Source of the DNA: Planctomycetota bacterium
Lineage (GTDB): Bacteria; Planctomycetota; B15-G4; JADJEK01
Direction: 5' to 3'
Assembly: GCA_044225365.1 (NCBI GenBank)
Contig: JBGAIQ010000059.1
Location: forward strand, 1-32,765
DNA length: 32,765 nucleotides
In this document: in pieces, positions 2,775 to 30,152 of the stretch
Layout of the letters: each line of letters begins with the position of its first letter
Position numbering within the stretch: the stretch's first letter is position 1
Translations under genes and position numbers: made by a program
Notes under the pieces: generated by a model
What the model was told of the DNA's origin: nothing
Seen by the model: only the letters and a program-made list of their open reading frames with translations
Database searches by the model: none

Positions 2775-4037
2775 ATGGACCTTCGCAATCTCCTCGCCGC
2801 CGCCCTCCCGTTCAGTGCCCTCTTCGCCGCCGCCGCGCACGCCGACGAATTCAAAGCGAACCACATGTTCGTCGGCAGCGTGAATTCTCATTCGATCAAC
2901 GAATTCGACGAGAGCGGACAGTTCGTTCGCACGATGATCCCGTCGGGCATGACCTCGCCCGAGTCCCTCGCGTTCGGACCGAACGGACGGCTCTACGCGG
3001 TCTCTTCGCTCTCGAACGAGATCTTCGAGATCCTCCCGAACGGAGACGTCGCGAAGAAGTATCCGCTCGAGAGCCCGTTCCACCCGAATGCGATCAGCTT
3101 CGGCCCCGGCGGGTTCCTGTACGTCCACAGCACCTCGAAGCGGGCGATCTTTCTGATCGACGTGCTCGCGGGCACGGGTCAGGGTTTTGGCAGCATTCCC
3201 GACGCGTCCGCGGTGGGCTTCGACGACTTCAAATTCACTTCGAACGGCACGATCATCGCGACGGTCGCGGGCCAGGGCTTCATCCTGGAGGAGAACTTGC
3301 TCGGTCAGATGATGCGCTTCAAGGGCGTGTTCAACAACTCCCTGCCCCGCGGCATCGCCGTCGGTCCCTTCGAACAGGTCTGGTATGCGTCGGAGACGAG
3401 TTCCTCGCTCGTGCGATCGACGGCTTATCTCGCCACTCTCGACACGTTCGGCGACGCGGCGTACAGCCAGGCGCAGAAGATCGCCTTCGGTCCGAATGGC
3501 CATCTCTTCGTCTGCTCGAAGGGCTTCAACAACGTCGCGGAATTCGATGCTCGCGACTTCTCGTTCGTGCGCCTCATCGGGACCTCCGCGCCTTCGATGG
3601 ACGGAGTGACGAGCATCGCGTTCGCGCCGTCGCGCTTCGAGGGTGAGATCGACTTCCGGCTCGCCGACGACGAGAACGACACCGACTCGACCGAAGAAGA
3701 CGTGTTCATCTCGATCGCGCCGGGCTCGCACTCGATCATGGTCCAGTTCAAGAACGGCAAGAGCGGAGACGGCATCTCCAGCAAGTTCTTCCAGGACGCG
3801 ATCGTCTTCCACGGCACGGAGCCCATGACCTCCGGCAGCAAGCGTCTCATCGACGGCACGGAGATGGGGAACGACGCTGGCGACGGCACGGCCCACATCG
3901 ACCTCGAGGTGAAGGCGTCGCCGAAGGGTAACTTCGGATTCATCGTCGCGAAGAAGGCATCGGGCCACTTCAGTCGCTCGGGCGCGGGTGGATTCTTCGC
4001 CGGAGAGATCAAAACGAAGAAGCTGCTGAACGGCTGA
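2775..4037 (+). CDS. Secreted NHL/Vgb-like beta-propeller protein with an uncharacterised C-terminal domain
   Basis: Signal peptide MDLRNLLAAALPFSALFAAAAHA|D, so ATG 2775 is preferred over GTG 2721. Repeats PESLAFGPNGRLY, PNAISFGPGGFLY, PRGIAVGPFEQVW, AQKIAFGPNGHLF. Confidence 0.8.
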   Translation: MDLRNLLAAALPFSALFAAAAHADEFKANHMFVGSVNSHSINEFDESGQFVRTMIPSGMTSPESLAFGPNGRLYAVSSLSNEIFEILPNGDVAKKYPLESPFHPNAISFGPGGFLYVHSTSKRAIFLIDVLAGTGQGFGSIPDASAVGFDDFKFTSNGTIIATVAGQGFILEENLLGQMMRFKGVFNNSLPRGIAVGPFEQVWYASETSSSLVRSTAYLATLDTFGDAAYSQAQKIAFGPNGHLFVCSKGFNNVAEFDARDFSFVRLIGTSAPSMDGVTSIAFAPSRFEGEIDFRLADDENDTDSTEEDVFISIAPGSHSIMVQFKNGKSGDGISSKFFQDAIVFHGTEPMTSGSKRLIDGTEMGNDAGDGTAHIDLEVKASPKGNFGFIVAKKASGHFSRSGAGGFFAGEIKTKKLLNG

Positions 4038-15720: not shown

Positions 15721-18654
15721 ATGGACTTGAAGATCGTCGATCCGGAACTGCCCGACGAACTCCGCGACCTCGTCGCGCGGGCGCTCGATCGGATCGAACA
15801 CGAGGGCGAAGCCGCTCTCGAGGCGATGTGCGAAGAGCATCCGCAGCACGCCGACTCACTGCGTCGGCGGGTCTCCGCGCTGCGCGCGATGGGGCTCGTC
15901 GAGGGCGGGAAGGACAAGCAGTCGTTCCCCGAGAAGCTCGGCGAATTCCGTCTCATCCGTCAACTCGGCGGTGGCGGAATGGGTGTCGTCTACCTCGCCG
16001 AGCAGGGCTCGCTCGGTCGCACCGTCGCGCTGAAACTGATTCGCCCCGAGAACCTCTACTTCCCGGGAGCGCGCGAGCGCTTCAAGCGCGAAGTCGACGC
16101 CGTCGCCAAGCTCCAGCATCCGAGCATCATCCCGATCTACACCGTCGGCGAGGAAGCAGGGATCCCGTACTTCGCGATGGAGCACATCGACGGCAAATCG
16201 CTGTCGCAGTGCATCGCAGCCTTTCGCACTCGCGACATCACCACGATCACCGCGGACGAAGTGAGGCGGTTCGTCGCGGGGAAGGACTCGAACGAAGCGA
16301 GCGGCGTGCGCGATGCGACCTCCGGAGTGTCGTCCGGGACCTCGTCGCACGGCGGATCCGTGCTTCGCGGTCGCTGGGTGCAGATCTGCCTGCGCATCGC
16401 TCGCGAGATGGCGCTCGCTCTCGCTCACGCCCACGAACGCGGCGTGCTCCATCGCGACATCAAGCCGTCGAACGTGATGCTGACGAAGGACGGCCGCGCG
16501 ATGCTCCTCGACTTCGGCCTCGCGATGTCGCAGGACGCCACGCGTCTCACGCGATCGGGCGCGCTCGTCGGGTCGATGCCCTACATGGCGCCCGAGCAGG
16601 TGCAAGGCCGTCTCGACGACATCGGGCCGTGCACCGATGTGTACTCGCTCGGCGTGACGCTCTACGAACTGCTGACTCTGCGCTTGCCGTACGCGAATTC
16701 GGTCGCCGACGAACTGCAGCGCGCGATCGTCGACGGCCAGCCCGAGACGCTCTCCGCGCTCAATCCCGCTATCCCGTGGGACGTGGAGACCGTGTGCCTC
16801 ACCGCGATGGACGCCGATCCGCGGCGCCGTTATCCGTCGGCGGAGAGCTTCGCGCGCGATCTCACGAACCTCCTCGAACTGCGACCGATCGAAGCGCGCC
16901 GCGCCGGACCGATCCTCCGCATGCGACGATTCGTGCAGCGGCATCCCGCGGCGTCGATCGGTGGAGCGCTCGGTCTGCTCATCCTCATCGGAGGCCCGCT
17001 CGTCTACGGCGTGCTCGAGCACAACAAGCGTCTCGAAATCGGGAAGCTGAACTCGAAGCTGAAGTCGGCCGTCGCAACCGCGACGAGCGAGCGCGAGCGC
17101 GCGGACAAGAGTGCCGACCTGGCGCTCGAGGCGATCGACCGCATGTTGACGGAGGTGGGGGACACCGCGCTCTCCGACGTTCCGTTGATGGAAGGCGTGC
17201 GCCGCCGATTGCTCGAGCAGGCGCTCACGATGTATCAGACGTTCGCGGCGGAACGGAGCGACGATATCGCCGTTGGCCAGCGCGTCGCGACGGCGTTCGC
17301 CAAGTTGGGACACATCCAGAGTCTGCTCGGACGCGGCGAAGACGCACAGATCAGTCTCCGCGAAGCAGTCACGCGGCTCTCCGATCTAGCGAAGCGTGAC
17401 AAATCCGATCGCGCCAAACTCGCCGTGGTCCATGCTCGCGTCGAATTGTGCGGCAATTTGCAGGAGGCCGGAAAGCTGAAGGAAGCCGACGTCGAGATCG
17501 ACGCCATTTTCGAACTGCTCGCGAAGATTCCCGATTCATCGCCTCTCGCGGACTCGTTCGCGATCGAGCACGGAAGAGTGCTTCACCACAAGGGGACTCT
17601 CGCGGCGCTGCGGGGAGATCGTGGAGGCGCCGAGAAGTTGTTCCGCGAGGCGACGACGCGTGCGAGCACGGTCGACCCGAAGGACATCGACGCCGCGATC
17701 GCCAAGGCCACGTGGTGGAACGACATCGGTCTCTCGATCCTTGGCGGTGAGAACGCATATCCCGCTCGCGAGAGCGAGATCGAGGATGCCTTCCAACATG
17801 CGCTCGCGACTCTCGAAGCATTGGATCCGAAGGATCGCGAGCGCAGCGATGTCCGAATCGGTCACGCGACCGTGCTCCAGGACCTCGCTGGCCACTATCG
17901 TCGTGCGAACGAGTACGACGAGTCCGCGAAGCGTTACGGCGAGGCGCTGGCGGAACTCAGCGATGTCGTCGCGGCGCACCCCGAACGCATCGAGAGCCGC
18001 ATCCAAATCGCGACGGTGCTGAACAACCTCGGGCTTCTCGCGGAGCAGCGCGGTCAACTCGAGGAGTGCGAGAAGAACTACTCCCAAGCCGTCGACCGTC
18101 TCGTCGAACTCACGAAGGCGGTGCCGACCTCGGCGGAATTGACCGAGCGGGTCGGCATCAGTTGGATGAATCTCGCGCACTGCGCGGGAGTGCAGCAACA
18201 GGGGGAGGTGGAGATCGAGCGACTCACGAAGGCTTGCGAATTCGTGCGGCGGGCGATCCAGATCAGTCCCGAGAATCCGTCCTACCGCGGAACGCTGGTC
18301 AGCGCGCTCGGCGGAATGATCCAAGCGCACCTCAGATTGGGGCACCACCAGGACGCATTCGCCGCGATCATCGAGTTCCAGGCGACGCGACCCGAGAGCG
18401 GCTCGCACTCCATCCGAGCGACGGTGTACCTCGCGGGATGCTGCAAGGCCGCGGCGCTCGATCCCGATCTCGACGACGCGAAGCAGGCCGAGGTCTGCGA
18501 GACCTACGCGAAGAAGGCGTGCGAGTTCGTGCGCCACGCGAAGGAGTTGGATTTCCCCGAACTCGCCGTCGTCGCGACGAAGCCCGAGTTCCAGCCGCTG
18601 CGCGACACGCAGGCGTTCGCGGCACTCCTCGTCGAGCTCGACCTCGCGAAGTGA
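15721..18654 (+). CDS. Hanks-type Ser/Thr protein kinase with one TM helix and a C-terminal TPR region
   Basis: GGGGMGVVY, VALK, HRDIKPSN, DFGLA, YMAPE, DVYSLG. TM AASIGGALGLLILIGGPLVYGVL followed by TPR-like helices. Confidence 0.95.
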   Translation: MDLKIVDPELPDELRDLVARALDRIEHEGEAALEAMCEEHPQHADSLRRRVSALRAMGLVEGGKDKQSFPEKLGEFRLIRQLGGGGMGVVYLAEQGSLGRTVALKLIRPENLYFPGARERFKREVDAVAKLQHPSIIPIYTVGEEAGIPYFAMEHIDGKSLSQCIAAFRTRDITTITADEVRRFVAGKDSNEASGVRDATSGVSSGTSSHGGSVLRGRWVQICLRIAREMALALAHAHERGVLHRDIKPSNVMLTKDGRAMLLDFGLAMSQDATRLTRSGALVGSMPYMAPEQVQGRLDDIGPCTDVYSLGVTLYELLTLRLPYANSVADELQRAIVDGQPETLSALNPAIPWDVETVCLTAMDADPRRRYPSAESFARDLTNLLELRPIEARRAGPILRMRRFVQRHPAASIGGALGLLILIGGPLVYGVLEHNKRLEIGKLNSKLKSAVATATSERERADKSADLALEAIDRMLTEVGDTALSDVPLMEGVRRRLLEQALTMYQTFAAERSDDIAVGQRVATAFAKLGHIQSLLGRGEDAQISLREAVTRLSDLAKRDKSDRAKLAVVHARVELCGNLQEAGKLKEADVEIDAIFELLAKIPDSSPLADSFAIEHGRVLHHKGTLAALRGDRGGAEKLFREATTRASTVDPKDIDAAIAKATWWNDIGLSILGGENAYPARESEIEDAFQHALATLEALDPKDRERSDVRIGHATVLQDLAGHYRRANEYDESAKRYGEALAELSDVVAAHPERIESRIQIATVLNNLGLLAEQRGQLEECEKNYSQAVDRLVELTKAVPTSAELTERVGISWMNLAHCAGVQQQGEVEIERLTKACEFVRRAIQISPENPSYRGTLVSALGGMIQAHLRLGHHQDAFAAIIEFQATRPESGSHSIRATVYLAGCCKAAALDPDLDDAKQAEVCETYAKKACEFVRHAKELDFPELAVVATKPEFQPLRDTQAFAALLVELDLAK

Positions 18655-18807: not shown

Positions 18808-21627
18808 ATGGCCAGAGCTAGTTCGTCGGCGCCTTGGGCGCCGACCGTCGCAGATCGCGTTCGCGAGGTCTGTGGTTACGTCGTATTCGCCGCGGCGACT
18901 TTCCTCGTCATCGCGTGCGCCTCCTATGTCGATCGCGACTCGCCCGGCGCGGCCGCCGGTCTTGCGAACCGTTGCGGCGCCACGGGCTACAAGATCGCCC
19001 GGGTGCTGCTCTTCGACTTTGGATACGGCATCTACCTCGGGATCTTCACGCTCTTCGTCTGGGGTCTCGCCCTGGTGTCGGGGCGATCGATCCGGGTGAA
19101 TCCGTTTCGTCTGCTCTGGCTCGGGTTCTTCCTGTTCAGCGCCTCGGCGCTCGTCAGCGACCTCGAACTGAAGCAGACGACGACGCTGCCCGATCCCGGC
19201 GGACTCGTCGGTCACGAGATCGCCCGCTACGTCGAACTCGGCCTCGGATTCGGCACATGGGGGACGAAGATCGTGCTGCTGGTCGCGGCGCTGATCTCCT
19301 TCCAACTCGCGACCGACTTCGTGCTCTTCACCATGCTGCGGGCGATGCGGGACTTCCTGGCCCGTCGCGGTGAACAGGCGGGCGTGGCCTTCGAGCGCGT
19401 CGGACCCATGTTCAAAGCACTCCTCGTTCGCAACGAACCGGCACCCGCGAAGCCGAGGGTTCGGGCGGGGAAGGTCGAGATCGCGGTCACCGACGAGGAG
19501 GTCGAAGGCTTCCCCGCTGCGGGCCAGGGCGCTCCGGGCGAGAAGGGCAAGCGCGGCAAGAAGGACGACCCCGCGTCCGACAAGAACGCTCCGAACAAGC
19601 CCGCCGACGCCGAAGCGGTGAAGCCGCCGAAGCCCTCGAAACCGCCCAAGGCGATGGTGGAGTCGCCTTCGGGCGACCTCACGAAGGTCGATCCCGAGGA
19701 GGTCGTCCTCGCCGCGGCTGCGCTCGCGAACAGCGAAGCGGCGAACGGCAAGGGGGCGCCGAAGGGCGCCAAGGGCCAAAAGGGCGCGAAGGAGGGCGAA
19801 AAGCCCGAGATCGCCGCTGCGGCGAGCGATGCGGGTGCCAACCTTCCGCCTGCCAAGACGGAGAAGCTCGACAAGAACGAGAAGAACGGCAAGAAGGCGA
19901 AGGAGCCGCTGCCGGACGAGGACGCCACCGACGATCCCGATTCGGGGCCGCCGCTCGAACTCCCGCGCCTCGATCCCCCTCCGATCCTCGCCGAGGATCC
20001 CGACGCCGAGGTCGTTCCGCCGCCGAAGGAGACCCGCGATCGCAAGCCGACCGCGAAGATCCACCTCGAGCCGCCGAAGGCGAAGATGCCGCGTTCGGCC
20101 GGATTCGAGAACGAGACGACGATCTTCTCGGCGCCGCCCGAGAACTCGATGCACGCCAAGGTCGAGTATCAATTTCCGTCGATCAACCTCCTGGAAGATC
20201 CGCACCCGATCAACCCGAAGGAATTCCAGAAGATGATCGAGGGGATGTCCGGCATCCTCGAGTCGTCGCTGCGTTCCTACAAGGTCGATGCATCGGTCGT
20301 GGAGATCCAGAAGGGGCCCGTGATCACGATGTTCGAGATCAACGTGGCCGAGGGCACGCGCGTCGACCGCATTCGCGCCCTCGAAGACGATCTCGCGATC
20401 CGGTTGAAGGTGCCGTCGGTGCGCATCGTGGCGCCGATCCCGGGCAAGTCGACGATCGGCATCGAGGTCCCGAATCGCATCCGCGAGACGGTCTGCCTTC
20501 GCGAACTCATCACGGCGCCCGAGTACAACTCCGCGAACTTCGCGATCCCGCTCTTCCTCGGCAAGGACGCGGCCGGCCGTGCCCTCATCGAGGATCTCGC
20601 GAAGATGCCGCACCTGCTCGTCGCCGGCGCGACCGGTGCCGGCAAGTCGGTGTGCCTCAACTCGATCATCATGTCGATCCTGTTCTCGCGCACGCCGGAC
20701 CAGTGCAAGATGATCCTGATCGACCCGAAGATGGTCGAGCTCTCGCTGTTCGAGAACATCCCGCACCTCGCGTGTCCCGTCGTCCGCGACATGAATCGCG
20801 CCGCGCAGATCCTCGAGTGGGCGTGTCAGAAGATGGACGAGCGATACGAGATCATGGCCGAGGTCGGCGCTCGTAACATCTTCGCTTACAACAAGATATC
20901 GGATCAAGAGAAGCGCACGAAGCTGTCGATCGCGGACGACGACGAGACGTTCGAGCCGAAGATGCCGTTCATCGTCATCGTCGTCGACGAGCTCGCCGAC
21001 CTGATGATGGTGTCCGCGAAGGACGTCGAGAACTCGATCACCCGCCTCGCGCAGAAGTCGCGCGCGGTCGGAATCCACATCATCCTCGCGACGCAACGTC
21101 CGTCGACGAACGTCATCACGGGTCTGATCAAGGCCAACTTGCCGACCCGCATCTCGTTCCAGGTCGCTTCGAAGATCGACTCCCGCGTCGTTCTCGACCA
21201 GAACGGAGCGGAGAAGTTGCTCGGGTTCGGCGACATGCTCTACCTGCCCCCGCGCACCTCGATGCTCGCTCGCGGGCAAGGCGCGTTCGTCGCCGACGAC
21301 GAGATTCGCAAGACGGTCGACTGCATCAAGGTCCAACAGCCGCAGTACGCCCGCGATCTGATCCAGCGCGAACAGCGGTCGGAGGTCGATCCGCTCGAGA
21401 TCGACGAACTCTACGGCGAGGCCGTCCGCTTCGTCTGTGAGACGAAGCGCGGCTCGGCTTCGCTGCTGCAGCGCCGCTTCTCGATCGGGTACACGCGGGC
21501 CTCGCGGCTGATCGATCTGATGGCGGGCGACGGCGTCCTCGGCGAGTACAAGAACGCCCAGGCTCGCGAAGTCCTGATGACCCTCGAGGAATACGAGGAC
21601 CGGCAGGAGAAGCGGGCCGAAGGCTGA
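18808..21627 (+). CDS. ftsK: DNA translocase FtsK (4TM domain, long linker, alpha/beta motor, gamma domain)
   Basis: GPVITMFE, APIPGKSTIGIEVPN, KMPHLLVAGATGAGKS (Walker A), LIDPKMVEL, IVIVVDELADLMM (Walker B), LATQRPS, gamma SASLLQRRFSIGYTRASRLID. Confidence 0.97.
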   Translation: MARASSSAPWAPTVADRVREVCGYVVFAAATFLVIACASYVDRDSPGAAAGLANRCGATGYKIARVLLFDFGYGIYLGIFTLFVWGLALVSGRSIRVNPFRLLWLGFFLFSASALVSDLELKQTTTLPDPGGLVGHEIARYVELGLGFGTWGTKIVLLVAALISFQLATDFVLFTMLRAMRDFLARRGEQAGVAFERVGPMFKALLVRNEPAPAKPRVRAGKVEIAVTDEEVEGFPAAGQGAPGEKGKRGKKDDPASDKNAPNKPADAEAVKPPKPSKPPKAMVESPSGDLTKVDPEEVVLAAAALANSEAANGKGAPKGAKGQKGAKEGEKPEIAAAASDAGANLPPAKTEKLDKNEKNGKKAKEPLPDEDATDDPDSGPPLELPRLDPPPILAEDPDAEVVPPPKETRDRKPTAKIHLEPPKAKMPRSAGFENETTIFSAPPENSMHAKVEYQFPSINLLEDPHPINPKEFQKMIEGMSGILESSLRSYKVDASVVEIQKGPVITMFEINVAEGTRVDRIRALEDDLAIRLKVPSVRIVAPIPGKSTIGIEVPNRIRETVCLRELITAPEYNSANFAIPLFLGKDAAGRALIEDLAKMPHLLVAGATGAGKSVCLNSIIMSILFSRTPDQCKMILIDPKMVELSLFENIPHLACPVVRDMNRAAQILEWACQKMDERYEIMAEVGARNIFAYNKISDQEKRTKLSIADDDETFEPKMPFIVIVVDELADLMMVSAKDVENSITRLAQKSRAVGIHIILATQRPSTNVITGLIKANLPTRISFQVASKIDSRVVLDQNGAEKLLGFGDMLYLPPRTSMLARGQGAFVADDEIRKTVDCIKVQQPQYARDLIQREQRSEVDPLEIDELYGEAVRFVCETKRGSASLLQRRFSIGYTRASRLIDLMAGDGVLGEYKNAQAREVLMTLEEYEDRQEKRAEG

Positions 21628-21798
21628 CGATTCCGGGTGTTCTCGCGGTTCTTTCGCGGTAGTTCGATCGGTACGATCTGGAAGCGTCCAAGGCGCGATC
21701 GACGGCGGGAGTCCGCCGTCGCACGATTACGATGAATCGAAACGTAGTGCGTTCGTCACGCGCAGCACGTCGCGTGATCTGGTGAACGGGAGCATGCA

Positions 21799-23478
21799 AT
21801 GATCTCCACTCTCGCGATGGGAGACCTGTCGGAATCACCACTCGGTCCGGCGCCGACGCTCCTCGGTATCGCCATCGCGGGTTACTGGGCGTGGGCGCTG
21901 ATCAAGAACTACCCGCTCACGAAGCCGCTGATGCGACTCATCGGCGTCGTGCTCTTCGTCTTCTCGCTCTCGCTCGTGCTCGGATTCAATCCGCCCTCGT
22001 ACGAGACGCAAGGCGGCTACGGCGGCCTCATCGGCCGCTGGATCGCCGACCGCATCCACTCGCACGGCTCGTCGGTGCTGAACGTCTCCGTCGTGATGAT
22101 GCTTCTCGTCGCCGTCCTCGGTTCGCTCGTGCTCGCGACCGAATGGTTCTTCATTCCGATCATGTTCCGACTGCAGGAAGCAGCGCAGCGCGCGGCCGCA
22201 GGACTCTCGGGAATGACGCCCGCCGTTGCCGGCGCCCATCGAATGGGCGGCGCTGGTGGACTCGGCGGAATGCGGCGCATGAGCGTCGAAGAGGACTCGA
22301 CGGCCGATCCCACCGTTCCTCCGGGATCCTACGGCGGCGTCTCCGCGCTCGACGAGGAGAACGAGCCGCGCGGTTCGTTCGGAACCTCGTTCGAAGCCCC
22401 GACGGACGAGATCGTCGGCCGACTCGGTGGCGAGAGTGGGGCACGTGAGGGCGAGACGATCGAGCCCGGCGAGGCCGGCGACGACCCGAACGTGCCTTGG
22501 TACGCGCGGCGTCGCGCTCGCCGTGAGGCCCAGCGGGCCGAGCGGGAGGCCAAGGAAGCTTCCGGCGGCAACGATGCCGAATCCGCGTCGGCGGACGATG
22601 CCCCGCCCACGGAGGAACCGGTTGCGGAGAGCGCGACGGAGTCGACATTGCGCCGCTGGCGCGCTCGTCATCGCATCGAAACTCCTGAGCACGAGTCGGA
22701 GGCGCCGCGAGCGGAGCCAAGCCCCGAAATCGATCGTGACGACGAGACCCGCGCTCCGGAAGCCGCGAGCACCGATCTCGCGCGCGATTTGAGCTCCGGC
22801 GTCGATAACGCGTTTGACTCCTTCTTCGGCGAAGAGAACCGAGCAGCACCCGCGGCGGAAACGGTCGCGGAGCCCGAAGCGGCAAGCGAGCAGGAGCCTG
22901 TCGCTTCGTCGCCCACGGCGCCGCAAGAGCTCGAAACCGTTCGAAACGACGACGATTTCGCGAGTCTCTTCGCCACGACGGAGAAGGCGATCGGGCATGC
23001 GCCGCCCGCTCCCGAGACTTCGCTCGCGCCGCGCTCCGATTTCGCAGACGAGATCGTCGCGGCGACATCTCCAGTCTCCGCAACGGACGACCGCGCGCCC
23101 ACCGAGAGCCCACCGCCGCTGCCGCAGTCGTCGATGGAATCCGTGGTCGATGCTCCCGTCGAACGCGAGACACCGACCAGCGAGCCCGTCGTCGCGAGCG
23201 TGCCGTCGGAACCCGAACCCGAAGCTGTTTCGTTCGGTCGCACGGTCACGCCCGACGATCCGGAACAACAGCTCTTCCTCGCCGCCGGCGACGCCGTCGT
23301 TTCCGGTCAGCGCGCCTCGATCTCCTTCCTGCAGCGCACGCTTTCGATCGGCTACTTCCAAGCTGCGAAGCTCCTCGATCGCCTCGAGAAGCAAGGCGTG
23401 ATCGGGCCCTACACCGGCGCCGTGAGCCGCAACGTCACGATGGACGCGGCGACCTGGGCGAAGGTCCGGAACGGCTGA
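21799..23478 (+). CDS. Motor-less FtsK paralog: FtsK-like TM region, acidic disordered linker, FtsK gamma domain
   Basis: GGGAG RBS. TM region GGLIGRWIA...LLVAVLGSLVLATEW matches FtsK GGLVGHEIA...LLVAALISFQLATDF. C-terminal ASISFLQRTLSIGYFQAAKLLDRLEKQGVIGP is a gamma winged helix. No Walker A or B. Confidence 0.85.
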   Translation: MISTLAMGDLSESPLGPAPTLLGIAIAGYWAWALIKNYPLTKPLMRLIGVVLFVFSLSLVLGFNPPSYETQGGYGGLIGRWIADRIHSHGSSVLNVSVVMMLLVAVLGSLVLATEWFFIPIMFRLQEAAQRAAAGLSGMTPAVAGAHRMGGAGGLGGMRRMSVEEDSTADPTVPPGSYGGVSALDEENEPRGSFGTSFEAPTDEIVGRLGGESGAREGETIEPGEAGDDPNVPWYARRRARREAQRAEREAKEASGGNDAESASADDAPPTEEPVAESATESTLRRWRARHRIETPEHESEAPRAEPSPEIDRDDETRAPEAASTDLARDLSSGVDNAFDSFFGEENRAAPAAETVAEPEAASEQEPVASSPTAPQELETVRNDDDFASLFATTEKAIGHAPPAPETSLAPRSDFADEIVAATSPVSATDDRAPTESPPPLPQSSMESVVDAPVERETPTSEPVVASVPSEPEPEAVSFGRTVTPDDPEQQLFLAAGDAVVSGQRASISFLQRTLSIGYFQAAKLLDRLEKQGVIGPYTGAVSRNVTMDAATWAKVRNG

Positions 23479-23705
23479 GGAACGCGCTCTCGTGGTGACC
23501 TGAGCGATGCCGTTTCCTGGCACGCTTGGAATCCATCGGCCCCGCGAACGAGGATGAAGCTCCTGGCGCACGTTCGCCATGCGCGCGTCGCGCGCCCCGT
23601 TTCACGCGGCGACGCATGCTCGGGATCCGACTCCCGGTCATCCTTGCCCGCCCGCCGAGGCTCGCGTCGGTTCGACCCTACGTTCTCGTGACGTACAATT
23701 CGGAG

Positions 23706-24275
23706 GTGTTCCTGCCGCAAAGCCACGACGCCACGATCCTGATGAACGCCGCCGCGGAGGGAGACAAGGCCGCGGCCGATCGACTGTTGCCCCTCGTCTA
23801 CGAGCAGCTTCGCGCGGCAGCCTCCCATCGCCTTGCGAACGAACGGCGCGATCACACTCTCTCGGCCACGGCGATCGTCCACGAGGCGTATCTGAAACTC
23901 GTCGGCCCAAGGAACGTGCCGTGGGCGGGGCGCCGCCATTTCTATGCGGCCGCGGCGCAGGCCATGCGGCAGATCCTGATCGACCACGCCCGAGCTCGCG
24001 GAGCGAGCGTGAAACGGACGATTCCGCTCGACGCGATCCCCGACATCGGAACGCTCGCCTCTGCAGATTCCGATCAGATTCTGGCAGTCGACGCCGCCTT
24101 GTCTCGCTTGGAGGGCGACGACCCCGAAGCTGCCGCCATCGTTCGCCTCCGGTTCTACGCCGGCCTCAGCGTCGATGAGGCGGCGGAAGCGCTCGGGGTG
24201 TCGTCCCGAACGGCGGCTCGCCTGTGGTCGTATTCCCGGGTGCTCCTGTTCCGGATGCTGTCTTGCGACTCCTGA
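23706..24275 (+). CDS. ECF sigma factor, TIGR02999 / ECF43-like (kinase-associated)
   Basis: GDKAAADRLLPLVYEQLR, HTLSATAIVHEAYLKL, HFYAAAAQAMRQILIDHAR, VRLRFYAGLSVDEAAEALGVS. Start uncertain: GTG 23706 (6 nt after TACAAT) or CTG 23712 (after GGAGG). Confidence 0.92.
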   Translation: MFLPQSHDATILMNAAAEGDKAAADRLLPLVYEQLRAAASHRLANERRDHTLSATAIVHEAYLKLVGPRNVPWAGRRHFYAAAAQAMRQILIDHARARGASVKRTIPLDAIPDIGTLASADSDQILAVDAALSRLEGDDPEAAAIVRLRFYAGLSVDEAAEALGVSSRTAARLWSYSRVLLFRMLSCDS

Positions 24276-24284
24276 GGCGTGATC

Positions 24285-27200
24285 ATGGACAAGCCGACGC
24301 TACGACGAGTCCGCCAGGTGTTCATGGAAGTGGTCGACCTTCCGGTGGCGGAACGCGGCGATGCGCTCGATCGCGCCTGCGCCGGTGATTCCGCACTTCG
24401 CTCCGAAGTGCAGTCCCTGCTCGACGCCGAAGCCCGGGCCGGCGCATTCCTCGCCGAACCGACCGCGGGAGCTTTGGGCGCGGAAGCCGCCAACGATCCG
24501 AGAGCGGGAGGATTCGAGCCTGCGGGATCGATGGGAACGCCGACGAGGCTCATGCCGACGCAGGAAGGGCCGGGTACGCGGATCGGCCCCTACAAGCTCC
24601 TCCAACTCATCGGCGAGGGAGGTTTCGGCAGCGTATTCATGGCCGAGCAGGAGAAACCGGTCCTGCGGAGGGTCGCCCTCAAGATCATCAAGCTGGGAAT
24701 GGACACGCGTGCGATCATCGCGCGCTTCGAGGCCGAGCGTCAGGCGCTCGCGCTCATGGATCATCCCCACATCGCGAGGGTGTTGGACGCGGGAGCTACC
24801 GAGACGGGTCGGCCCTATTTCGTGATGGAACTCGTGAAGGGCGATCCGATCGGTGATTACTGCGACAAGCAACGCCTCTCGATCAAGGATCGACTCGAGC
24901 TCTTCGTTCAGGTCTGCGCGGCGATCCAGCACGCGCACAACAAGGGGATCATCCACCGCGACATCAAGCCATCGAACGTGCTCGTCAGCACGCAGGACGG
25001 GCGGCCGCACGCCAAGGTGATCGATTTCGGGATCGCCAAGGCGACCGCGAGCAAGTTGACCGAGAAGACTCTGTTCACGGAACACGGCGCCCTCATCGGC
25101 ACGCCGGAGTACATGAGCCCGGAGCAGGCGGAGGGTTCGCTCGACATCGACACGCGGACCGACGTGTATTCGCTCGGCGTACTGCTCTACGAGTTGATCA
25201 CCGGGACCACTCCGTTTCGGCGCTCCAACCTACGTTCCGCCGCTTACGGCGAGATCCAGAGGATCATCCGCGAGGTCGAACCCGAGAAGCCGAGCACGCG
25301 GATCAGCGAGAACTTCGACCTGCTCGTGAACGTCGCGACGCAACGCAACGTCGAGCCGAAGAAGCTCGGCTTGATGATCCGCGGCGATCTCGATTGGATC
25401 GTGATGCGGGCCCTCGAGAAGGATCGGCAGCGGCGGTACGAGACGGCGAACGGCTTCGCGATGGATATCCGGCGCTACCTCACGGGAGAAGCAGTGCTCG
25501 CCGCGCCGCCGAGCGCGGCGTATCGCACCGTGAAGTTCGTGCGAAGGAATCGACTGCAAGTCGCAGCCGCGGGCCTCATTCTCATCGCGCTCCTCCTCGG
25601 ACTCGCCGGGACCGCCTGGCAGGCGAAGGTCGCTTCCGATCGAGCCGAAGCGGCGCGACAAGCCGAGGCCGAAGCGAAGACCGCCCGCGATGCCGAACGA
25701 ATGCGCGCGAACGAACTCGAGCAGGTCAGCCAGTTCCAGGAGAAGATGCTCTCGCAAGTCGATCCCACCACGGCCGGCGTGTGGCTCACCGAGGATGTGA
25801 ATCGGCGATTCGTCGCGGCGTTGGTGAAGGCCAATGTGCCCGAGGATCAGCGCGGGAATCGACTCGAGGAGTTCGAGAAGGAGTGGGCGCATGTCAATGC
25901 GACCGATGCCGCGGCGGCGCTCATCGACGAGACCATTCTGAAGCCGGCGGTGAAGGCGATCGACGAACAGTTCAAGGGCCAGCCCGTCGTCGACGCGAAG
26001 CTGCGACAAGTGTTGGCGGATCGATACGTGGAGCTGGGGTTGTACGAGGCCGCGATGCCGCTGCAAGTGGGCGCGCTCGCAACTCGACGGCGCGAGCTCG
26101 GGAACGAGCATCTCGACACGTTGCGGTCGATCGACTCCCTGGGCGTACTTCTCCTGCTCCAAAGGAAACTCGATCCGGCCGAGACCAACGTTCGCGAAGT
26201 GCTCGAGATCCGCCGGCGACTGCAAGGAGAAGTCGCCCGTGACACGTTGTTCTCCTACGACACCCTTGCCCAGATCCTGGCAGCGCGAGGGGACTTGGAG
26301 AGCGTCGTGAAGATCCAGCGCGATATCCTCACGAAATCCCGCCGCGTCCTCGGCGACGATGATCCCGACACGATTCGTTCGATCAACAACCTGGCTTCCG
26401 GGCTCCAGAGTCAGAAGGAATTCGTGGAGGCCGAAGGGCTCTACCGCGAGGCCATGGAGCGATACCGGCGCGTCAACGGCGAGAACCACAAGTCGACGCT
26501 CGCGGCGCTGAACAACATCGGTTCCGTACTGAAGGCGCAGGGGAAACTCGAGGAAGCCGAGACGGCCTTCCGCGAGGCCCTGGCGAAGCGCCGGCGCTCC
26601 CTCGGCGACGATCATCCGACCACGCGCTCCGCGATCAACAACGTCGCGAGCGTTCTCGAATCACAGCGCAAGTTTGCCGAGGCCGAACCGTTCGCTCGCG
26701 AAGCGATGGAGAAGGCACCGCGCCTGCTCGGCGAGGCGCACCTCAGCACGCTCATGATCGCGACTCGATTGGGGGATATCCTGTACGGTGAGAAGAAGTA
26801 TGCGGAGGCCGAACCCTACCTGCGTCGTGCGGTCGAAGGGCAACGTCGCCTCCAGGGCGTGGATCACCCGGATACGAACTTTGCCCGGATGATGCTGAGC
26901 TCGCTGCTCATGACGGAAGAGAAGTTCGTCGACGCCGAGCCCTTGAACCGCGAGATCCTGGAGTCGAGTCTGCGCAGCTCGGGAGCGGACCATCTCACGA
27001 CCATCAACGCCGAAAGCGCTCTTGGGAGCACGCTCCTCGGAATGGAGCGCTTCGCCGACGCCGAACCCGTGCTCCGCGACGCGTTGGAGCGCGCTGAACG
27101 CACCCTCGGATCGAGTCACCTCACGACCTTGCTCACCGCCTCGGCTCTCGGCGTCCTGCTCGAGCGGACCGGTCGCCATGCGGAGGCCGTGGAACGACTC

Positions 27201-27542
27201 GAGAAGATCGTGAACCTGTGCCGCCAGTCGTTCAAGGACGCCCGAGCGCGACCATTGGGACGGATGTTGTGGGCGCTCGGCCGCGCCCGCATGAAACTTG
27301 GCTTCGAGTCGGAGCGATTCGAGGATGCCGAGGAGGATCTGACCGAAGCCTGCCCGATCCTCGTCGAAGCGCTCGGGGACACCCACGCCGACACGCGCGC
27401 ATGCACGCAGGATCTCGTGGACTTCTACTCCGCATGGGCCGCGGCCGAGCCCGGAAAGGGCTACGACGCCAAGGCGGCCGAATGGCGCGGCAAGCTCGCC
27501 GAATCGAACGCTCCCGCGGCCGGCACGCCGGAGAAGCGCTGA
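24285..27542 (+). CDS. Hanks-type Ser/Thr protein kinase with TM helix and ~42-aa TPR (kinesin-light-chain-like) repeats
   Basis: GEGGFGSVF, VALK, HRDIKPSN, DFGIAK, GTPEYMSPE. TM LQVAAAGLILIALLLGLAGTAW. Repeats LGxxHxxTLxxxNNL. Starts 9 nt after the ECF stop; GTG 24279 is an alternative start. Confidence 0.95.
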   Translation: MDKPTLRRVRQVFMEVVDLPVAERGDALDRACAGDSALRSEVQSLLDAEARAGAFLAEPTAGALGAEAANDPRAGGFEPAGSMGTPTRLMPTQEGPGTRIGPYKLLQLIGEGGFGSVFMAEQEKPVLRRVALKIIKLGMDTRAIIARFEAERQALALMDHPHIARVLDAGATETGRPYFVMELVKGDPIGDYCDKQRLSIKDRLELFVQVCAAIQHAHNKGIIHRDIKPSNVLVSTQDGRPHAKVIDFGIAKATASKLTEKTLFTEHGALIGTPEYMSPEQAEGSLDIDTRTDVYSLGVLLYELITGTTPFRRSNLRSAAYGEIQRIIREVEPEKPSTRISENFDLLVNVATQRNVEPKKLGLMIRGDLDWIVMRALEKDRQRRYETANGFAMDIRRYLTGEAVLAAPPSAAYRTVKFVRRNRLQVAAAGLILIALLLGLAGTAWQAKVASDRAEAARQAEAEAKTARDAERMRANELEQVSQFQEKMLSQVDPTTAGVWLTEDVNRRFVAALVKANVPEDQRGNRLEEFEKEWAHVNATDAAAALIDETILKPAVKAIDEQFKGQPVVDAKLRQVLADRYVELGLYEAAMPLQVGALATRRRELGNEHLDTLRSIDSLGVLLLLQRKLDPAETNVREVLEIRRRLQGEVARDTLFSYDTLAQILAARGDLESVVKIQRDILTKSRRVLGDDDPDTIRSINNLASGLQSQKEFVEAEGLYREAMERYRRVNGENHKSTLAALNNIGSVLKAQGKLEEAETAFREALAKRRRSLGDDHPTTRSAINNVASVLESQRKFAEAEPFAREAMEKAPRLLGEAHLSTLMIATRLGDILYGEKKYAEAEPYLRRAVEGQRRLQGVDHPDTNFARMMLSSLLMTEEKFVDAEPLNREILESSLRSSGADHLTTINAESALGSTLLGMERFADAEPVLRDALERAERTLGSSHLTTLLTASALGVLLERTGRHAEAVERLEKIVNLCRQSFKDARARPLGRMLWALGRARMKLGFESERFEDAEEDLTEACPILVEALGDTHADTRACTQDLVDFYSAWAAAEPGKGYDAKAAEWRGKLAESNAPAAGTPEKR

Positions 27543-27638: not shown

Positions 27639-30152
27639 ATGCGTTCAGGATCAAGGGCCCTTCGTGCGAGCAGCGTCCTGATCTGGACTCCGATCTGCTG
27701 CGCCTCGGCGCTCGGTCAGGCGGGAACGATCTTCCCCCAGCCTTCGTTCGGACCGCTCTACAACCAGAACTCGCTCGTGAGCGCCGACGTCAACGAGGAC
27801 GGCCGCACCGACCTCGTGGCGATCGGCCCAGGAATCGGCAGCAACAATGCAATCGCGATCGCCGTGTTCGTTGCCGGCGGTAGCTTCGGTTTTCGCCACG
27901 AGACGATCGATCCGATTCAGGGATCGAATGCGTGGAACGTCGCCGTGGGCGACATCGACGGCGACGGTCACCTCGACTTGCTTTCGACGCGCAACTACCC
28001 ACCCGCGCTGTTGCTCTACAAGGGCTCGGGAAACGCTTCGTTCGCGACTCCCGTATCGCTCGCACCGGCGACTCCGTCGCCCAATCGTCTCGTGATGGGA
28101 GATCTCGACGGCGATGGACACTCCGATGCAATCGAGATCTCGAGTCTTACGGTGCGCGTGAGCCTTGCGAATGGTCAGGGAGGATTCGTTCCAGGCATCG
28201 ACTACAGCGGGATCGGAATCGGCGATGGGGCACCGGCGCTCGATGACTTCGATCTCGATGGAGCGCTCGATGTCGCAACATGCAACTACTCGGTGAAGAG
28301 CGTCGCGGTCCTTCTCGGTGATGGGCAGGGCGCGTTCAAAGCAGCGTGGCGCAATCTCGCGCCGGCGTTTCCGCTGGGGCTCGCGTCGGGCGACCTCGAT
28401 TCCGATGGAGACGCCGATCTCGCCGTTGCGATGGCCGCGAGCGGCGTTGCGCTGCTGTACGGACAGAACGGAAACAACTTCTCGACCGCGTACGGCTCGA
28501 TCGGAACGGGCGCGTCGGCGGTCGCGTTCGCGGACATCGATGCCGATGGTGATCTCGATGTAGGCGCTGCTGGCGGAGGCGTCTGGCGGAACGATGGCGC
28601 GGGGTCGTTCACGAATCACGGCAGCGTCCCCGACGGATCGATGATCCTCGGCGGAAGATTCACGGACGACCCGGGCGATGATTTCGCGGTCGGAGGCGGG
28701 AAGATTGCGATCGTCGGACTCGATGGGAACGGCGATCCGGCGCTCCCCGCGACGGTTTCGTTGAACCAGCCGGCGACCTTCGTCGTGTCACTCGACATCG
28801 ATCATGATCAGGACGACGACCTCGTCGTCGCACAGCAATCGAATTCGAATCTGGCGGTTCTCGTTCGAAACGCGAACGGTAGCTACGTGATGGGGCCGAC
28901 GGTTGCGGTTTCGGGCGTGGTGAACGACTTGAAGTCGACGGATCTCGATCACGACGGGGATCAAGATCTGGTGTTGTCGGTGAGGATGACCTCGTTTCCG
29001 TTTACCACGAATCGCGTCACGATACTGCTTGGCGACGGCAACGGATCGTTCGGAGTTCCACTCACGATCCAGAGCGGCAACAGTCCATCCGATGGGCGAA
29101 TCCAGATCGCCGATGTCGACGGTGATGGCGATTCAGATGTGGTGCATTACGGGGCGGATGGAGCTTTCGATCTGTATCTCAATGTCGGTGGCGCGCTCGC
29201 GGCACCGACGCATTACTCCGTCTCGCTGTACCCAGTGATTCATGTATTCTCCGCCGACATCAACGGGGATGGCGCAGTGGACTTGGCGTTCTCGAATGAC
29301 AGCACAAACACCGTCGTGCTGTTCGCAGGCACACCGAGTGGTAGCCTCGTCGGACCATGGATGATTTCCGCACCCTACGGGTATTCGCTCGGCCTCGGTG
29401 ATTTCGACGGCGACGGGAAATGCGATCTCTTCACCGGGGCCTCGATCTGTCGGGGAAATGGCATAGGCGGTTTCTCGCCACCCGAATCGGTCGTATTTCC
29501 GGGAACCAGTCTTCCGGGCCAAGGCGTTCTCGAACCCATCGTCACGGATCTCGACCAGGACGGGATCGACGACTTCGTTGCGCCGCTCAACACGTCGAAT
29601 GCGATCGCGGTCCTGAGGCATTCTTCGAGCGGCTGGTCGTACGTCACCTATCCGACGACGTACGCCGCGCGGAGCATGGCCCTCACTCGACTCGATGGAA
29701 ACGCGTTCCCCGATCTCGCAGTCGCTTCCGACGGTTACGCGTTGACGTTGCTGAAGAACCTCTCGACGCCGGCGCAGGCGTCATCGATCGGCGTCGGCAA
29801 GCCGGGAACGCATGGCGTCCCGCTTCTGACCTCGAGCGCTCCGACACTCGGCCCTCCGACCGTGCTCACGATCGGAAATGGCCTTCCTGGCGCCTATCCC
29901 ATGTTGTTCGCGGGGCTCGTTCCCGCTGCGATCCCCTTCGATGGCGGTCAACTCGTCGTGCAGCCCTTGATCGCGACGATTCTTCCCCCGCTCGGCGGGA
30001 ACGGCTCGCTGGCGATACCCATCACCCTGCCGACGGGCCTCGGGTTGAGCGGACTCACGGTGTACCTGCAGGCGATGTTCTTCGATCCCGGCGCCGCGGG
30101 TCCGTATCACACGGCGCAGACGCCGGGTCTCGCGTGGTCGATCGGTTGGTGA
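27639..30152 (+). CDS. Secreted FG-GAP/VCBS-repeat (integrin-like, Ca-binding) protein with a ~120-aa C-terminal domain
   Basis: GAGGAG RBS and signal peptide ending ASALG|Q. More than ten DxDxDGxxD motifs (ADVNEDGRTDL, GDIDGDGHLDL, GDLDGDGHSD, ADVDGDGDSDV, GDFDGDGKCDL). Confidence 0.92.
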   Translation: MRSGSRALRASSVLIWTPICCASALGQAGTIFPQPSFGPLYNQNSLVSADVNEDGRTDLVAIGPGIGSNNAIAIAVFVAGGSFGFRHETIDPIQGSNAWNVAVGDIDGDGHLDLLSTRNYPPALLLYKGSGNASFATPVSLAPATPSPNRLVMGDLDGDGHSDAIEISSLTVRVSLANGQGGFVPGIDYSGIGIGDGAPALDDFDLDGALDVATCNYSVKSVAVLLGDGQGAFKAAWRNLAPAFPLGLASGDLDSDGDADLAVAMAASGVALLYGQNGNNFSTAYGSIGTGASAVAFADIDADGDLDVGAAGGGVWRNDGAGSFTNHGSVPDGSMILGGRFTDDPGDDFAVGGGKIAIVGLDGNGDPALPATVSLNQPATFVVSLDIDHDQDDDLVVAQQSNSNLAVLVRNANGSYVMGPTVAVSGVVNDLKSTDLDHDGDQDLVLSVRMTSFPFTTNRVTILLGDGNGSFGVPLTIQSGNSPSDGRIQIADVDGDGDSDVVHYGADGAFDLYLNVGGALAAPTHYSVSLYPVIHVFSADINGDGAVDLAFSNDSTNTVVLFAGTPSGSLVGPWMISAPYGYSLGLGDFDGDGKCDLFTGASICRGNGIGGFSPPESVVFPGTSLPGQGVLEPIVTDLDQDGIDDFVAPLNTSNAIAVLRHSSSGWSYVTYPTTYAARSMALTRLDGNAFPDLAVASDGYALTLLKNLSTPAQASSIGVGKPGTHGVPLLTSSAPTLGPPTVLTIGNGLPGAYPMLFAGLVPAAIPFDGGQLVVQPLIATILPPLGGNGSLAIPITLPTGLGLSGLTVYLQAMFFDPGAAGPYHTAQTPGLAWSIGW

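What the first reader, a model, noticed from the sequence alone, without database searches (positions are those of the whole stretch)
21799..23478. Tandem motor-less FtsK paralog: a membrane-tethered gamma domain next to intact ftsK
Seen: directly after a complete ftsK lies an intact 559-aa ORF with its own RBS. Its N-terminal membrane region aligns with the distal FtsK TM domain (GGLIG/GGLVG, LLVAVLGSLVLATEW/LLVAALISFQLATDF). It then has a ~360-aa acidic, Pro/Glu-rich disordered linker and an FtsK gamma winged helix, but no alpha/beta ATPase (no Walker A/B). Known: gamma reads KOPS and activates XerCD, and FtsK is the main divisome protein retained by FtsZ-less planctomycetes. Inference: duplication plus clean motor loss produced a dedicated partner, such as a chromosome-membrane tether, an Xer activator or a modulator co-assembling with FtsK through the TM domain. 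I do not recall this two-gene arrangement being described; it is the best candidate for a new system here.
Basis: partly seen in the sequence, partly recalled or inferred. Interest (0 to 1): 0.85.

Follow-up and report, generated by a model that had tools for sequence, protein, structure and literature searches.

The report
Motor-less FtsK paralog beside ftsK
Next to the DNA-pump gene ftsK, a group of planctomycete bacteria keeps a second, conserved copy that retains the membrane anchor and the DNA-reading tip but has no motor, which points to an unstudied helper in chromosome segregation or cell division.

Summary
ORF 21799-23478 (+, 559 aa) follows a complete ftsK (18808-21627). It has an FtsK-type membrane domain, an acidic linker of about 360 residues and an FtsK gamma winged helix. 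It has no alpha/beta motor and no Walker motifs. One correction: the membrane domain matches FtsK TM2-TM4 only, so it has three helices, not four.

It is neither an artefact nor a pseudogene.
- The ftsK-paralog pair recurs in 3 of 4 families of the window's order and in 11 of 20 sampled two-gamma genomes from other Planctomycetota families.
- dN/dS is 0-0.30 for the membrane domain, 0.06-0.12 for gamma and 0.39-0.65 for the linker.
- Contigs from two other studies bridge the junction.

FtsK's own gamma recognition helix is nearly invariant across the phylum. The paralog's helix varies by family and keeps only the Leu-Gln-Arg/Lys turn.

Function is inferred. Most likely it is an ATP-independent accessory of FtsK, a gamma domain on a polyanionic tether held at the membrane. 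Public databases call it "hypothetical protein" or, wrongly, "DNA translocase FtsK". My eight literature searches found no description. Structure and complex predictions could not be run.

The parts
18808..21627 (+). Complete ftsK (939 aa): 4TM, linker, alpha, RecA-type motor, gamma. It is the conserved upstream partner gene.
   Evidence: ORF. (PF13491 61.2 bits, PF17854 106.4, PF01580 198.3, PF09397 78.7). (the only PF01580 match in the genome). (Walker A at aa 607, Walker B at aa 723).
21628..21798 (+). 171-nt intergenic gap with a GGGAG ribosome-binding site at 21788-21792. No terminator-like site and no promoter-like site was found in it.
   Evidence: No Rfam match, and the fold is no better than shuffles (z 0.01). 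The gap is 4-34 nt in nine relatives.
21799..23478 (+). Motor-less FtsK paralog, 559 aa, whole gene including the stop codon.
21799..22173 (+). N-terminal membrane domain (aa 1-125): three TM helices homologous to FtsK TM2-TM4. GGxxG and LAT(D/E)W motifs are shared with FtsK. The predicted topology is N-terminus outside and C-terminus in the cytoplasm.
   Evidence: PF13491, model 68-164/171. (hhalign 97.9%, E 5.7e-13). (hydropathy; N-tail has 0 Lys/Arg, first loop has 3 Lys/Arg). (invariant G76, G79, A113, W116). (dN/dS 0-0.30).
22174..23250 (+). Polyanionic, low-complexity linker (aa 126-484), net charge -43. Its sequence diverges between relatives but its acidity is conserved.
   Evidence: composition. 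(net -38 to -148 in 16 of 16 family members, against -23 to +13 in 10 FtsK linkers). (dN/dS 0.39-0.65).
22495..22527 (+). Short basic motif inside the linker, Pro-Trp-Tyr followed by an Arg cluster (from aa 233). It is conserved in the closest relatives only.
   Evidence: alignment. (pattern found in 15 of 66 family members). (position).
23251..23475 (+). C-terminal FtsK gamma winged-helix domain (aa 485-559; Pfam match aa 489-548 = nt 23263-23442).
   Evidence: 69.3 bits in the genome scan. (matches solved FtsK gamma chains 2j5o, 2ve8/2ve9, 2j5p, 5dcf). (dN/dS 0.06-0.12). (residue pattern).

Best explanation
The gene encodes a conserved, ATP-independent accessory of the FtsK machinery. It arose by an old duplication of ftsK, followed by loss of TM1 and of the whole alpha/beta motor.

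The protein sits in the cytoplasmic membrane through three helices that are the counterpart of FtsK TM2-TM4. That core probably brings it to the same membrane site as FtsK, or into contact with FtsK N-domain assemblies. About 360 residues of polyanionic, disordered chain hold a gamma winged helix out into the cytoplasm.

I propose that this gamma captures chromosomal DNA at the FtsK site without translocating it. It would act as a landing pad or tether, with relaxed or lineage-specific sequence preference. The acidic tether would keep the domain from sticking to bulk DNA.

Shown: the architecture, the homology of both end domains, conservation, purifying selection, and tight linkage to ftsK.

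Inferred: topology, co-transcription, co-localisation with FtsK, DNA binding, and the role in segregation or division.
For: - Architecture: gamma and partial 4TM both score over the Pfam cut-offs, with no motor. The N-domain equals FtsK aa 71-178.
- Linkage within the order (30 genomes at least 85% complete): f1 has two gammas in 9 of 9 genomes, on one contig in 8 of them. f4 has them on one contig in 5 of 5, and f5 in 4 of 4.
- Linkage in named records: 12 of 13 loci have ftsK directly upstream; the 13th is cut by a contig end.
- Linkage elsewhere in the phylum: 11 of 20 sampled two-gamma genomes from other families have the second gamma 1.8-3 kb downstream on the same strand. In 12 of 15 fetched downstream frames, the membrane domain and gamma lie in one frame.
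- Only the ftsK-paralog pair is shared by all 13 loci. Any other neighbour is shared by at most 4.
- Gaps of 4-34 nt in nine relatives, and no terminator-like site here, fit co-transcription.
- Selection, five close pairs: dN/dS is 0-0.30 for TM, 0.06-0.12 for gamma and 0.39-0.65 for the linker.
- Linker acidity is conserved in 16 of 16 members although the sequence is not.
- Gamma keeps the fold and a net positive charge (mean +2.1, n=28, against +1.6 for FtsK gammas).
- Published background: the E. coli FtsK N-domain hexamerises on its own at midcell (PMC3870252, abstract read). Three gamma domains bind one KOPS (PMC3384302, passages read).
Against: - There are no data on localisation, binding or expression. 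No RNA run holds the locus.
- The recognition-helix positions that are fixed in FtsK are variable in the paralog. In FtsK they read T 30/33, R 33/33, R 32/33 and D 31/33 at the equivalents of E. coli N1296, R1297, R1300 and E1303. In the paralog the entropy at those positions is 1.6-2.3 bits. In some distant families the R1300 equivalent is Ala, Glu or Gln. Sequence-specific DNA reading is therefore doubtful, and DNA binding itself is unproven.
- A strongly acidic tether could inhibit DNA binding rather than tune it.
- Family f3 of the same order lacks the gene: 12 of 12 genomes, and no such frame downstream of ftsK in 4 loci. The function is therefore dispensable in some lineages.
- The 171-nt gap in this genome may carry its own promoter.
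- Shared TM homology does not prove co-assembly.
Confidence: 0.45

Rival explanations
1. Its gamma works mainly on XerD. It would be a membrane-anchored, translocation-independent activator of XerCD-dif recombination. Alternatively it would be a decoy that holds XerD back until FtsK arrives.
For: - Isolated gamma, or gamma fused to XerC or XerD, activates XerCD-dif recombination without the motor (PMC3130261, abstract and passages).
- The gamma residues that make the decisive XerD contact in E. coli are Q1288 and R1289 (PMC5052618, section 5 and Table 1). They are the best-kept positions of the paralog: Gln in 28 of 28, Arg in 20 and Lys in 8 of 28.
- The genome encodes XerD (338 bits against a cut-off of 329.6) and a second Xer-like recombinase (288 bits).
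Against: - The same Leu-Gln-Arg turn is invariant in all FtsK gammas, so it may be kept for the fold or for DNA-backbone contact.
- The N1296 equivalent is Phe and the R1292 equivalent is Ser in this protein.
- On the XerD side the E. coli contact residues are mostly changed: E119 to T, Q123 to D, I127 to A, E184 to R. Only E183 is kept (the numbering offset is my inference).
- In E. coli, motor-free activation gives topologically complex products that hinder unlinking (PMC3130261, abstract).
Confidence: 0.2
2. The membrane domain and the acidic linker are the working parts. The protein would be a division-site scaffold, comparable to the N-domain plus linker of E. coli FtsK. It would recruit other envelope or division proteins in FtsZ-less cells, with gamma only adding a link to the nucleoid.
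For: - FtsZ is not found in this genome (0 matches at 94.3% completeness; the control rings in 13 of 14 genomes).
- FtsK is essential in Planctopirus and organises the divisome in FtsZ-less Chlamydia (PMC6952346, passages; PMC11975371, abstract).
- The TM domain is the most constrained part in 3 of 5 pairs.
- Linker acidity is conserved.
Against: - Gamma is as constrained as the TM domain, so it is not a passenger.
- Budding planctomycetes such as P. limnophila are reported to have one FtsK homolog only (PMC6952346).
- Family f3 lacks the gene.
- No partner is known.
Confidence: 0.12
3. It is a negative modulator. It would enter mixed oligomers with the FtsK N-domain and limit or time the assembly of FtsK motor hexamers.
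For: - The homologous TM2-TM4 core shares the GGxxG and LAT(D/E)(W/F) motifs.
- N-domains hexamerise independently of the motor in E. coli (PMC3870252, abstract).
- The two genes are probably co-expressed.
Against: - A pure poison subunit would not need a conserved gamma or a conserved acidic linker.
- TM1 is missing, which may prevent it from fitting into an FtsK N-domain ring.
- The complex prediction could not be run.
Confidence: 0.1
4. It is a decaying remnant of a duplicated ftsK, or an assembly artefact that removed the motor.
For: - One relative (G110, L067) has the membrane part and the gamma part in two overlapping frames.
- Linkers diverge fast.
Against: - Intact frames with the same architecture occur in dozens of genomes from several families.
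- dN/dS is well below 1 in both end domains.
- Contigs assembled separately from runs of two other studies bridge the ftsK 3' end and the paralog 5' part. X4 covers 21109-21989 and X5 covers 21211-22585.
- No insertions or deletions were reported (table 4).
Confidence: 0.02

Closest known systems
FtsK DNA translocase (E. coli, P. aeruginosa; Pfam PF13491 + PF17854 + PF01580 + PF09397)
   Same: The membrane domain is homologous to TM2-TM4. There is a long low-complexity linker and a C-terminal gamma winged helix, in the same order along the chain.
   Different: It has no alpha or beta domains, no Walker motifs and no TM1. The linker is strongly acidic, whereas the FtsK linkers here are near neutral. 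The recognition helix differs from the invariant one of the phylum's FtsK. It cannot pump DNA.
Isolated gamma and XerC-gamma / XerD-gamma fusions (laboratory constructs, PMC3130261)
   Same: Gamma acts without a motor. These constructs show that a motor-less gamma can be biochemically active.
   Different: They are artificial and soluble. The protein here is natural, membrane-anchored and diverged at several contact positions. Its activity on Xer is untested.
SpoIIIE / SftA in Bacillus subtilis (two FtsK-family proteins sharing the work; recalled, not checked in a call)
   Same: A second FtsK-family gene takes a specialised role in late segregation.
   Different: Both Bacillus proteins keep the motor. 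SftA lacks the membrane domain, which is the opposite truncation.
Other motor-less gamma proteins: phage proteins with a gamma domain, short proteins with 2-3 tandem gammas, DUF4236 + 2 gammas
   Same: They carry an FtsK gamma domain without PF01580 (PMC8190038 seen in a listing only).
   Different: None of those scanned has the FtsK-type membrane domain or synteny with ftsK. Some short ones may be gene fragments from metagenomes.
DNA-to-membrane or DNA-to-divisome tethers such as Noc, RacA and MatP-ZapB (recalled; likeness of function only)
   Same: A DNA-binding module is coupled to the membrane or the division site without ATP-driven transport. This is what I propose the protein does.
   Different: There is no homology. 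Those proteins bind defined sites, and no site is known here.

Membership tests
FtsK/SpoIIIE DNA translocases (PF01580) | RecA-type ATPase (beta) domain with Walker A and Walker B motifs | tested here: not met
   No PF01580 hit at E <= 1. No Walker A or hhhhDE pattern, while FtsK has both. The genome has one PF01580 match only, in ftsK.
FtsK/SpoIIIE DNA translocases | FtsK alpha domain (PF17854) | tested here: not met
   No hit in the paralog. The neighbouring FtsK scores 106.4 bits.
FtsK_gamma (PF09397) | Winged-helix gamma domain over the Pfam gathering score | tested here: met
   64.7 bits against 30.6 at aa 489-548. 69.3 bits in the genome scan. Sequence matches to solved gamma chains 2j5o, 2ve8, 2j5p and 5dcf.
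FtsK_4TM (PF13491) | Four-helix membrane domain of FtsK/SpoIIIE | tested here: inconclusive
   It scores over the cut-off (32.4 against 23.1) but covers model positions 68-164 of 171 only. hhalign places aa 15-123 on FtsK aa 71-178. There are three hydrophobic segments. It is homologous, but TM1 is absent.
KOPS-reading gamma (as in E. coli FtsK) | Recognition-helix residues R1300, E1303 and E1306, whose joint change to Ala gives KOPS blindness (PMC2680272) | tested here: inconclusive
   The equivalents are K, D and E in this protein. They vary between families, with entropy 1.6-1.7 bits at the first two. The phylum's own motif is unknown. Binding is not testable with these tools.
XerD-activating gamma | Contact residues Q1288, R1289, R1292, I1293, G1294 and N1296 (PMC5052618, Table 1) and their XerD partners | tested here: inconclusive
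   Q, R, I and G are kept; R1292 becomes S and N1296 becomes F. XerD of this genome keeps E183 but not E119, Q123, I127 or E184.
The family itself (3-TM FtsK-like domain + acidic linker + gamma, downstream of ftsK) | Same architecture and synteny in other genomes | tested here: met
   Three Atlas clusters of 54-70 members are named 'hypothetical protein', with Planctomycetota the commonest taxon.

The most novel reading that the evidence does not exclude
The protein is a dedicated, so far unstudied part of the FtsZ-independent division and segregation apparatus of Phycisphaerales-type planctomycetes. It would be a membrane-fixed, ATP-free gamma adaptor working side by side with the essential FtsK. 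It would couple the chromosome (terminus DNA, or XerCD bound at dif) to the division site, so that FtsK's two jobs, anchoring and pumping, are split between two gene products.
Probability: 0.3. Interest if true: 0.75.

Novelty: new variant of a known kind. Interest (0 to 1): 0.58.

Why it matters
How planctomycetes divide without FtsZ is an open question, and FtsK is one of the few division genes conserved across the phylum. It is also the only one of four tested division and elongation genes found to be essential in Planctopirus (PMC6952346; PMC12283558).

This is a second, conserved FtsK-derived protein, encoded directly behind ftsK in a large part of the phylum. It is a concrete, testable candidate partner of that machinery.

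It is also a natural experiment on what a gamma domain and an FtsK membrane domain do when no motor is attached. It separates the constraint on FtsK's own recognition helix, which is invariant across the phylum, from the constraint on the fold.

On the practical side, automatic annotation calls some members "DNA translocase FtsK". That name is wrong, because they have no translocase domain.

Tried and rejected
No model and no fold search were possible.
- **Complex prediction** of FtsK aa 1-195 with paralog aa 1-135 was never accepted because the queue was full. There is no result of any kind.
- **The Atlas** did not hold the window's exact protein. I used the stored homologue P0006 instead.
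- **Expression:** no RNA holder was listed for the locus. This says nothing about expression.
- **A second word-index protein search** with a diverse alignment (A3) found no new family members and no new organism names.
- **The class-level genome search** returned the same 30 genomes as the order-level search. I could not separate class from order, and I could not tie presence or absence to named classes or to division mode.
- **Intergenic region 21628-21798:** no Rfam family at E <= 1 inside it, and the fold is no better than shuffles.
- **PADLOC:** no match. **PHROGs:** gamma-only matches. A defence or phage origin is rejected.
- **Counting genomes with two or more gamma hits** over-counts the family. 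About 71 of 251 genomes have such hits, by my own count of the table. In a second sample of 10 such genomes only 2 were tandem. The others were multi-gamma FtsK, second hits on other contigs, or weak hits.
- **Gamma net charge** does not separate the paralog from FtsK.
- **Supplementary files of papers** were not opened. Figure-based residue maps (PMC5052618 Fig. 1C, PMC3384302 Fig. 1A) could not be seen.
Full report
**What is in the sequence**

ORF 21799..23478 (+, ATG, 559 aa) follows a complete ftsK (18808..21627, 939 aa) on the same strand.

Pfam finds all four FtsK modules in the upstream gene: 4TM at aa 17-178, alpha at 456-556, motor at 564-766 and gamma at 865-925.

In the 559-aa protein Pfam finds only two:
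- FtsK_gamma at aa 489-548, 64.7 bits against a cut-off of 30.6.
- FtsK_4TM at aa 22-117, 32.4 bits against a cut-off of 23.1.

NCBIfam has no model for it. It gives only an 18-bit local match to the gamma end of the FtsK model. The protein has no Walker A or B pattern, while FtsK has both. The genome holds two gamma domains and one motor domain, all in this window.

A GGGAG lies 6 nt before the ATG. The 171-nt gap has no terminator-like site, no Rfam match and no unusual fold. The antisense ORF 21835..23580 has no family match and is taken as a shadow frame.

**Anatomy**

The membrane domain is not a full 4TM. The Pfam match covers model positions 68-164 of 171. A profile-profile comparison of 16 paralog N-domains with 10 FtsK N-domains aligns paralog aa 15-123 with FtsK aa 71-178 (97.9% probability, E 5.7e-13). 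Hydropathy gives three hydrophobic segments in 12 of 12 orthologues, near aa 18-36, 44-62 and 84-110. In the window protein the first segment falls just under the threshold used.

The domain therefore corresponds to FtsK TM2-TM4, and TM1 is gone. The N-terminal tail has no Lys or Arg and the first loop has three. By the positive-inside rule this puts the N-terminus outside and the C-terminal part in the cytoplasm. That topology is an inference.

The shared conserved motifs are GGxxG and LAT(D/E)(W/F), at the end of the last helix.

The linker (aa 126-484) has net charge -43. In 16 of 16 aligned family members the linker is strongly acidic (net -38 to -148). The linkers of 10 FtsK proteins from the same group are near neutral (-23 to +13). 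The acidity is conserved although the sequence is not.

A short Pro-Trp-Tyr plus Arg-cluster motif at aa 233 is kept in the closest relatives only, 15 of 66 family members.

**It is a real, old, constrained gene**

*The window's own family and order.*
- All 11 relatives of the window's family (f1) carry a protein with both end domains directly after ftsK. In one of them it is split over two contigs.
- Among 30 genomes of the order that are at least 85% complete, f1 has two gamma domains in 9 of 9, on one contig in 8. f4 has them on one contig in 5 of 5, and f5 in 4 of 4.
- Family f3 has one gamma domain in 11 of 12 genomes, plus one sub-threshold hit elsewhere in the twelfth.
- In four f3 loci nothing of the kind lies downstream of ftsK.

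*Named records.* A scan of named genome records found 13 loci. By their titles they are metagenome-assembled genomes labelled Phycisphaera, Phycisphaeraceae, Phycisphaerales or Planctomycetota. Twelve show ftsK immediately upstream, and the 13th is cut by the contig end.

*The wider phylum.* In a sample of 251 genomes, about 71 have two or more gamma hits, by my own count of the table.
- Of 20 such genomes from other families that I looked at, 11 have the second gamma 1.8-3 kb downstream of the FtsK gamma on the same strand (9 of 10; 2 of 10).
- The rest are multi-gamma FtsK proteins, hits on other contigs, or weak hits.
- In 12 of 15 fetched downstream frames, the membrane domain and gamma lie in one frame. 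One is split over two frames, and two show gamma only at the default threshold.

*Protein databases.* A filter-free profile search of 1.84 billion representatives gave 52 proteins at E <= 1e-30.

*Neighbourhood.* Only the ftsK-paralog pair is shared by all 13 named loci. The window's kinases, ECF sigma factor and FG-GAP gene are not found near the pair elsewhere. The gap between the two genes is 4-34 nt in nine relatives.

*Selection.* dN/dS (Nei-Gojobori, five close pairs) is 0-0.30 for the membrane domain, 0.06-0.12 for gamma and 0.39-0.65 for the linker.

*Assembly.* Contigs assembled separately from public runs bridge the junction.
- One run, possibly the source sample, covers 20982-23900 without a difference.
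- Runs of two other studies cover 21109-21989 and 21211-22585 at about 95-96% identity.
- No insertions or deletions were reported.

Mis-assembly and decay are excluded.

**History**

In a tree of the shared N-domain region, the paralogs of f1, f4 and f5 form one group (support 95/89, 18 rows) apart from the FtsK N-domains of the same genomes. The duplication therefore predates the split of these families.

For the other families the branches are long. A single origin is neither excluded nor shown.

In an FtsK motor tree the four families of the order form one group (99), with paralog-bearing families outside it. The absence in f3 is thus most simply a loss. That step is an inference.

**What the gamma domain says**

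The sequence matches solved FtsK gamma domains. I transferred E. coli numbering from that alignment. The published residues I used are:
- the KOPS-blind triple R1300A/E1303A/E1306A (PMC2680272, passages);
- the XerD contacts Q1288, R1289, R1292, I1293, G1294 and N1296 (PMC5052618, section 5 and Table 1).

This protein has Q, R, S, I, G and F at the XerD-contact positions, and K, D and E at the KOPS positions.

Across 33 FtsK gammas of the phylum the recognition helix is almost invariant: T 30/33, R 33/33, R 32/33 and D 31/33 at the equivalents of N1296, R1297, R1300 and E1303. Across 28 paralog gammas the same positions vary (entropy 2.28, 2.21, 1.62 and 1.69 bits). The Leu-Gln-(Arg/Lys) turn is kept in all 28. 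These sequences are related to one another, so the counts are not independent.

FtsK's gamma is thus held fixed, as expected for a reader of a genome-wide motif (compare PMC3384302, passages). The paralog's gamma keeps the fold and one surface but is free, or lineage-specific, at the base-reading positions.

The genome has XerD (338 bits, over the cut-off) and a second Xer-like gene. Its XerD keeps only E183 of the E. coli gamma-contact residues (the numbering offset is my inference). Residue logic therefore cannot decide for or against a XerD contact.

**Most likely mechanism and rivals**

I rate an ATP-independent accessory of FtsK as most likely (0.45). In this reading the protein is anchored by the TM2-TM4 core at or next to FtsK assemblies. 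It presents gamma on a polyanionic tether and captures DNA without pumping it.

The rivals are:
- a motor-free XerD activator or decoy (0.2), supported by the activity of isolated gamma in E. coli (PMC3130261) and by the kept Gln-Arg pair;
- a division scaffold in which the N-domain and linker are the working parts (0.12), which fits the absence of FtsZ and the central role of FtsK in FtsZ-less bacteria;
- an inhibitory partner in mixed N-domain oligomers (0.1);
- a remnant or artefact (0.02, refuted).

**Comparison with what is known, and novelty**

The protein is a member of the FtsK_gamma domain family and a partial member of FtsK_4TM. It fails the defining test of FtsK/SpoIIIE translocases, because it has no motor.

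Motor-less gamma proteins exist elsewhere: tandem-gamma proteins, a DUF4236-gamma protein, and phage proteins. So "gamma without motor" is not new in itself.

What my searches did not find in print is this family: an FtsK-type membrane core, an acidic tether and gamma, encoded behind ftsK. The eight literature searches listed no paper describing it. The planctomycete division papers I read in passages speak of one FtsK (PMC6952346, PMC12283558, PMC5147048).

Databases name members "hypothetical protein" or "DNA translocase FtsK", or list the two Pfam domains.

I file it as a new variant of a known kind, with interest 0.58. It is conserved, well defined and directly testable, and it sits beside the key division gene of FtsZ-less bacteria. 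It has no functional evidence yet, and it is dispensable in at least one sister family.

Noticed in passing
window 21835-23580 (-): A 581-aa antisense open frame overlaps the whole paralog. It has no Pfam match. It is most likely a shadow frame of GC-rich DNA.
   Followed up: partly
window 22495-22527 (+), aa 233-243 of the paralog: A Pro-Trp-Tyr plus Arg-cluster motif sits in the otherwise fast-evolving acidic linker. It is kept in 15 of 66 family members, the closest relatives only. Its partner or role is unknown.
   Followed up: partly
window 21409-21582 (+) and FtsK genes of loci L002-L085: The recognition helix of FtsK's own gamma domain is almost invariant across the sampled Planctomycetota (33 sequences). 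This suggests one conserved KOPS-type guide motif for the whole phylum. The motif was not searched for.
   Followed up: no
window 15721-18654, 23526-24275, 24279-27542, 27639-30152 (+): The pair is flanked by two Ser/Thr kinases with TPR repeats, an ECF sigma factor directly before the second kinase, and an FG-GAP repeat protein. None of these neighbours is found near ftsK in 13 related loci.
   Followed up: partly
window 21628-21798: The gap between ftsK and the paralog is 171 nt in this genome but 4-34 nt in nine relatives. It contains a 9-bp GC-rich hairpin without a T-run. It has no Rfam match and its fold is no better than shuffles.
   Followed up: partly
P0041, P0050, P0056, P0059, P0079, P0045: Other gamma architectures turned up. 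There are short proteins with 2-3 tandem gamma domains and no motor, and a DUF4236 + 2 gamma protein of 517 aa. There is also an FtsK with three gamma domains. Some of the short ones may be gene fragments.
   Followed up: no
L067 (G110:C8:108600-111100); G008 contigs C261 and C22: In one genome the paralog's membrane part and gamma part lie in two overlapping frames, either a frameshift or a sequencing error. In another genome the gene is split over two contigs within the linker.
   Followed up: no
L037 (G000:C95:228883-232755), ORF 1498-2994 (-): The XerD gene of this genome lies in an open frame of 498 aa, with about 200 extra residues ahead of the XerD-like part. Its counterpart of the E. 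coli gamma-contact residue E184 is Arg.
   Followed up: partly
G053:C69:81323-82412; G239:C209:49235-49672: Some other Planctomycetota genomes have two or three gamma domains in close series within about 1 kb. This is a different arrangement from the paralog described here.
   Followed up: no
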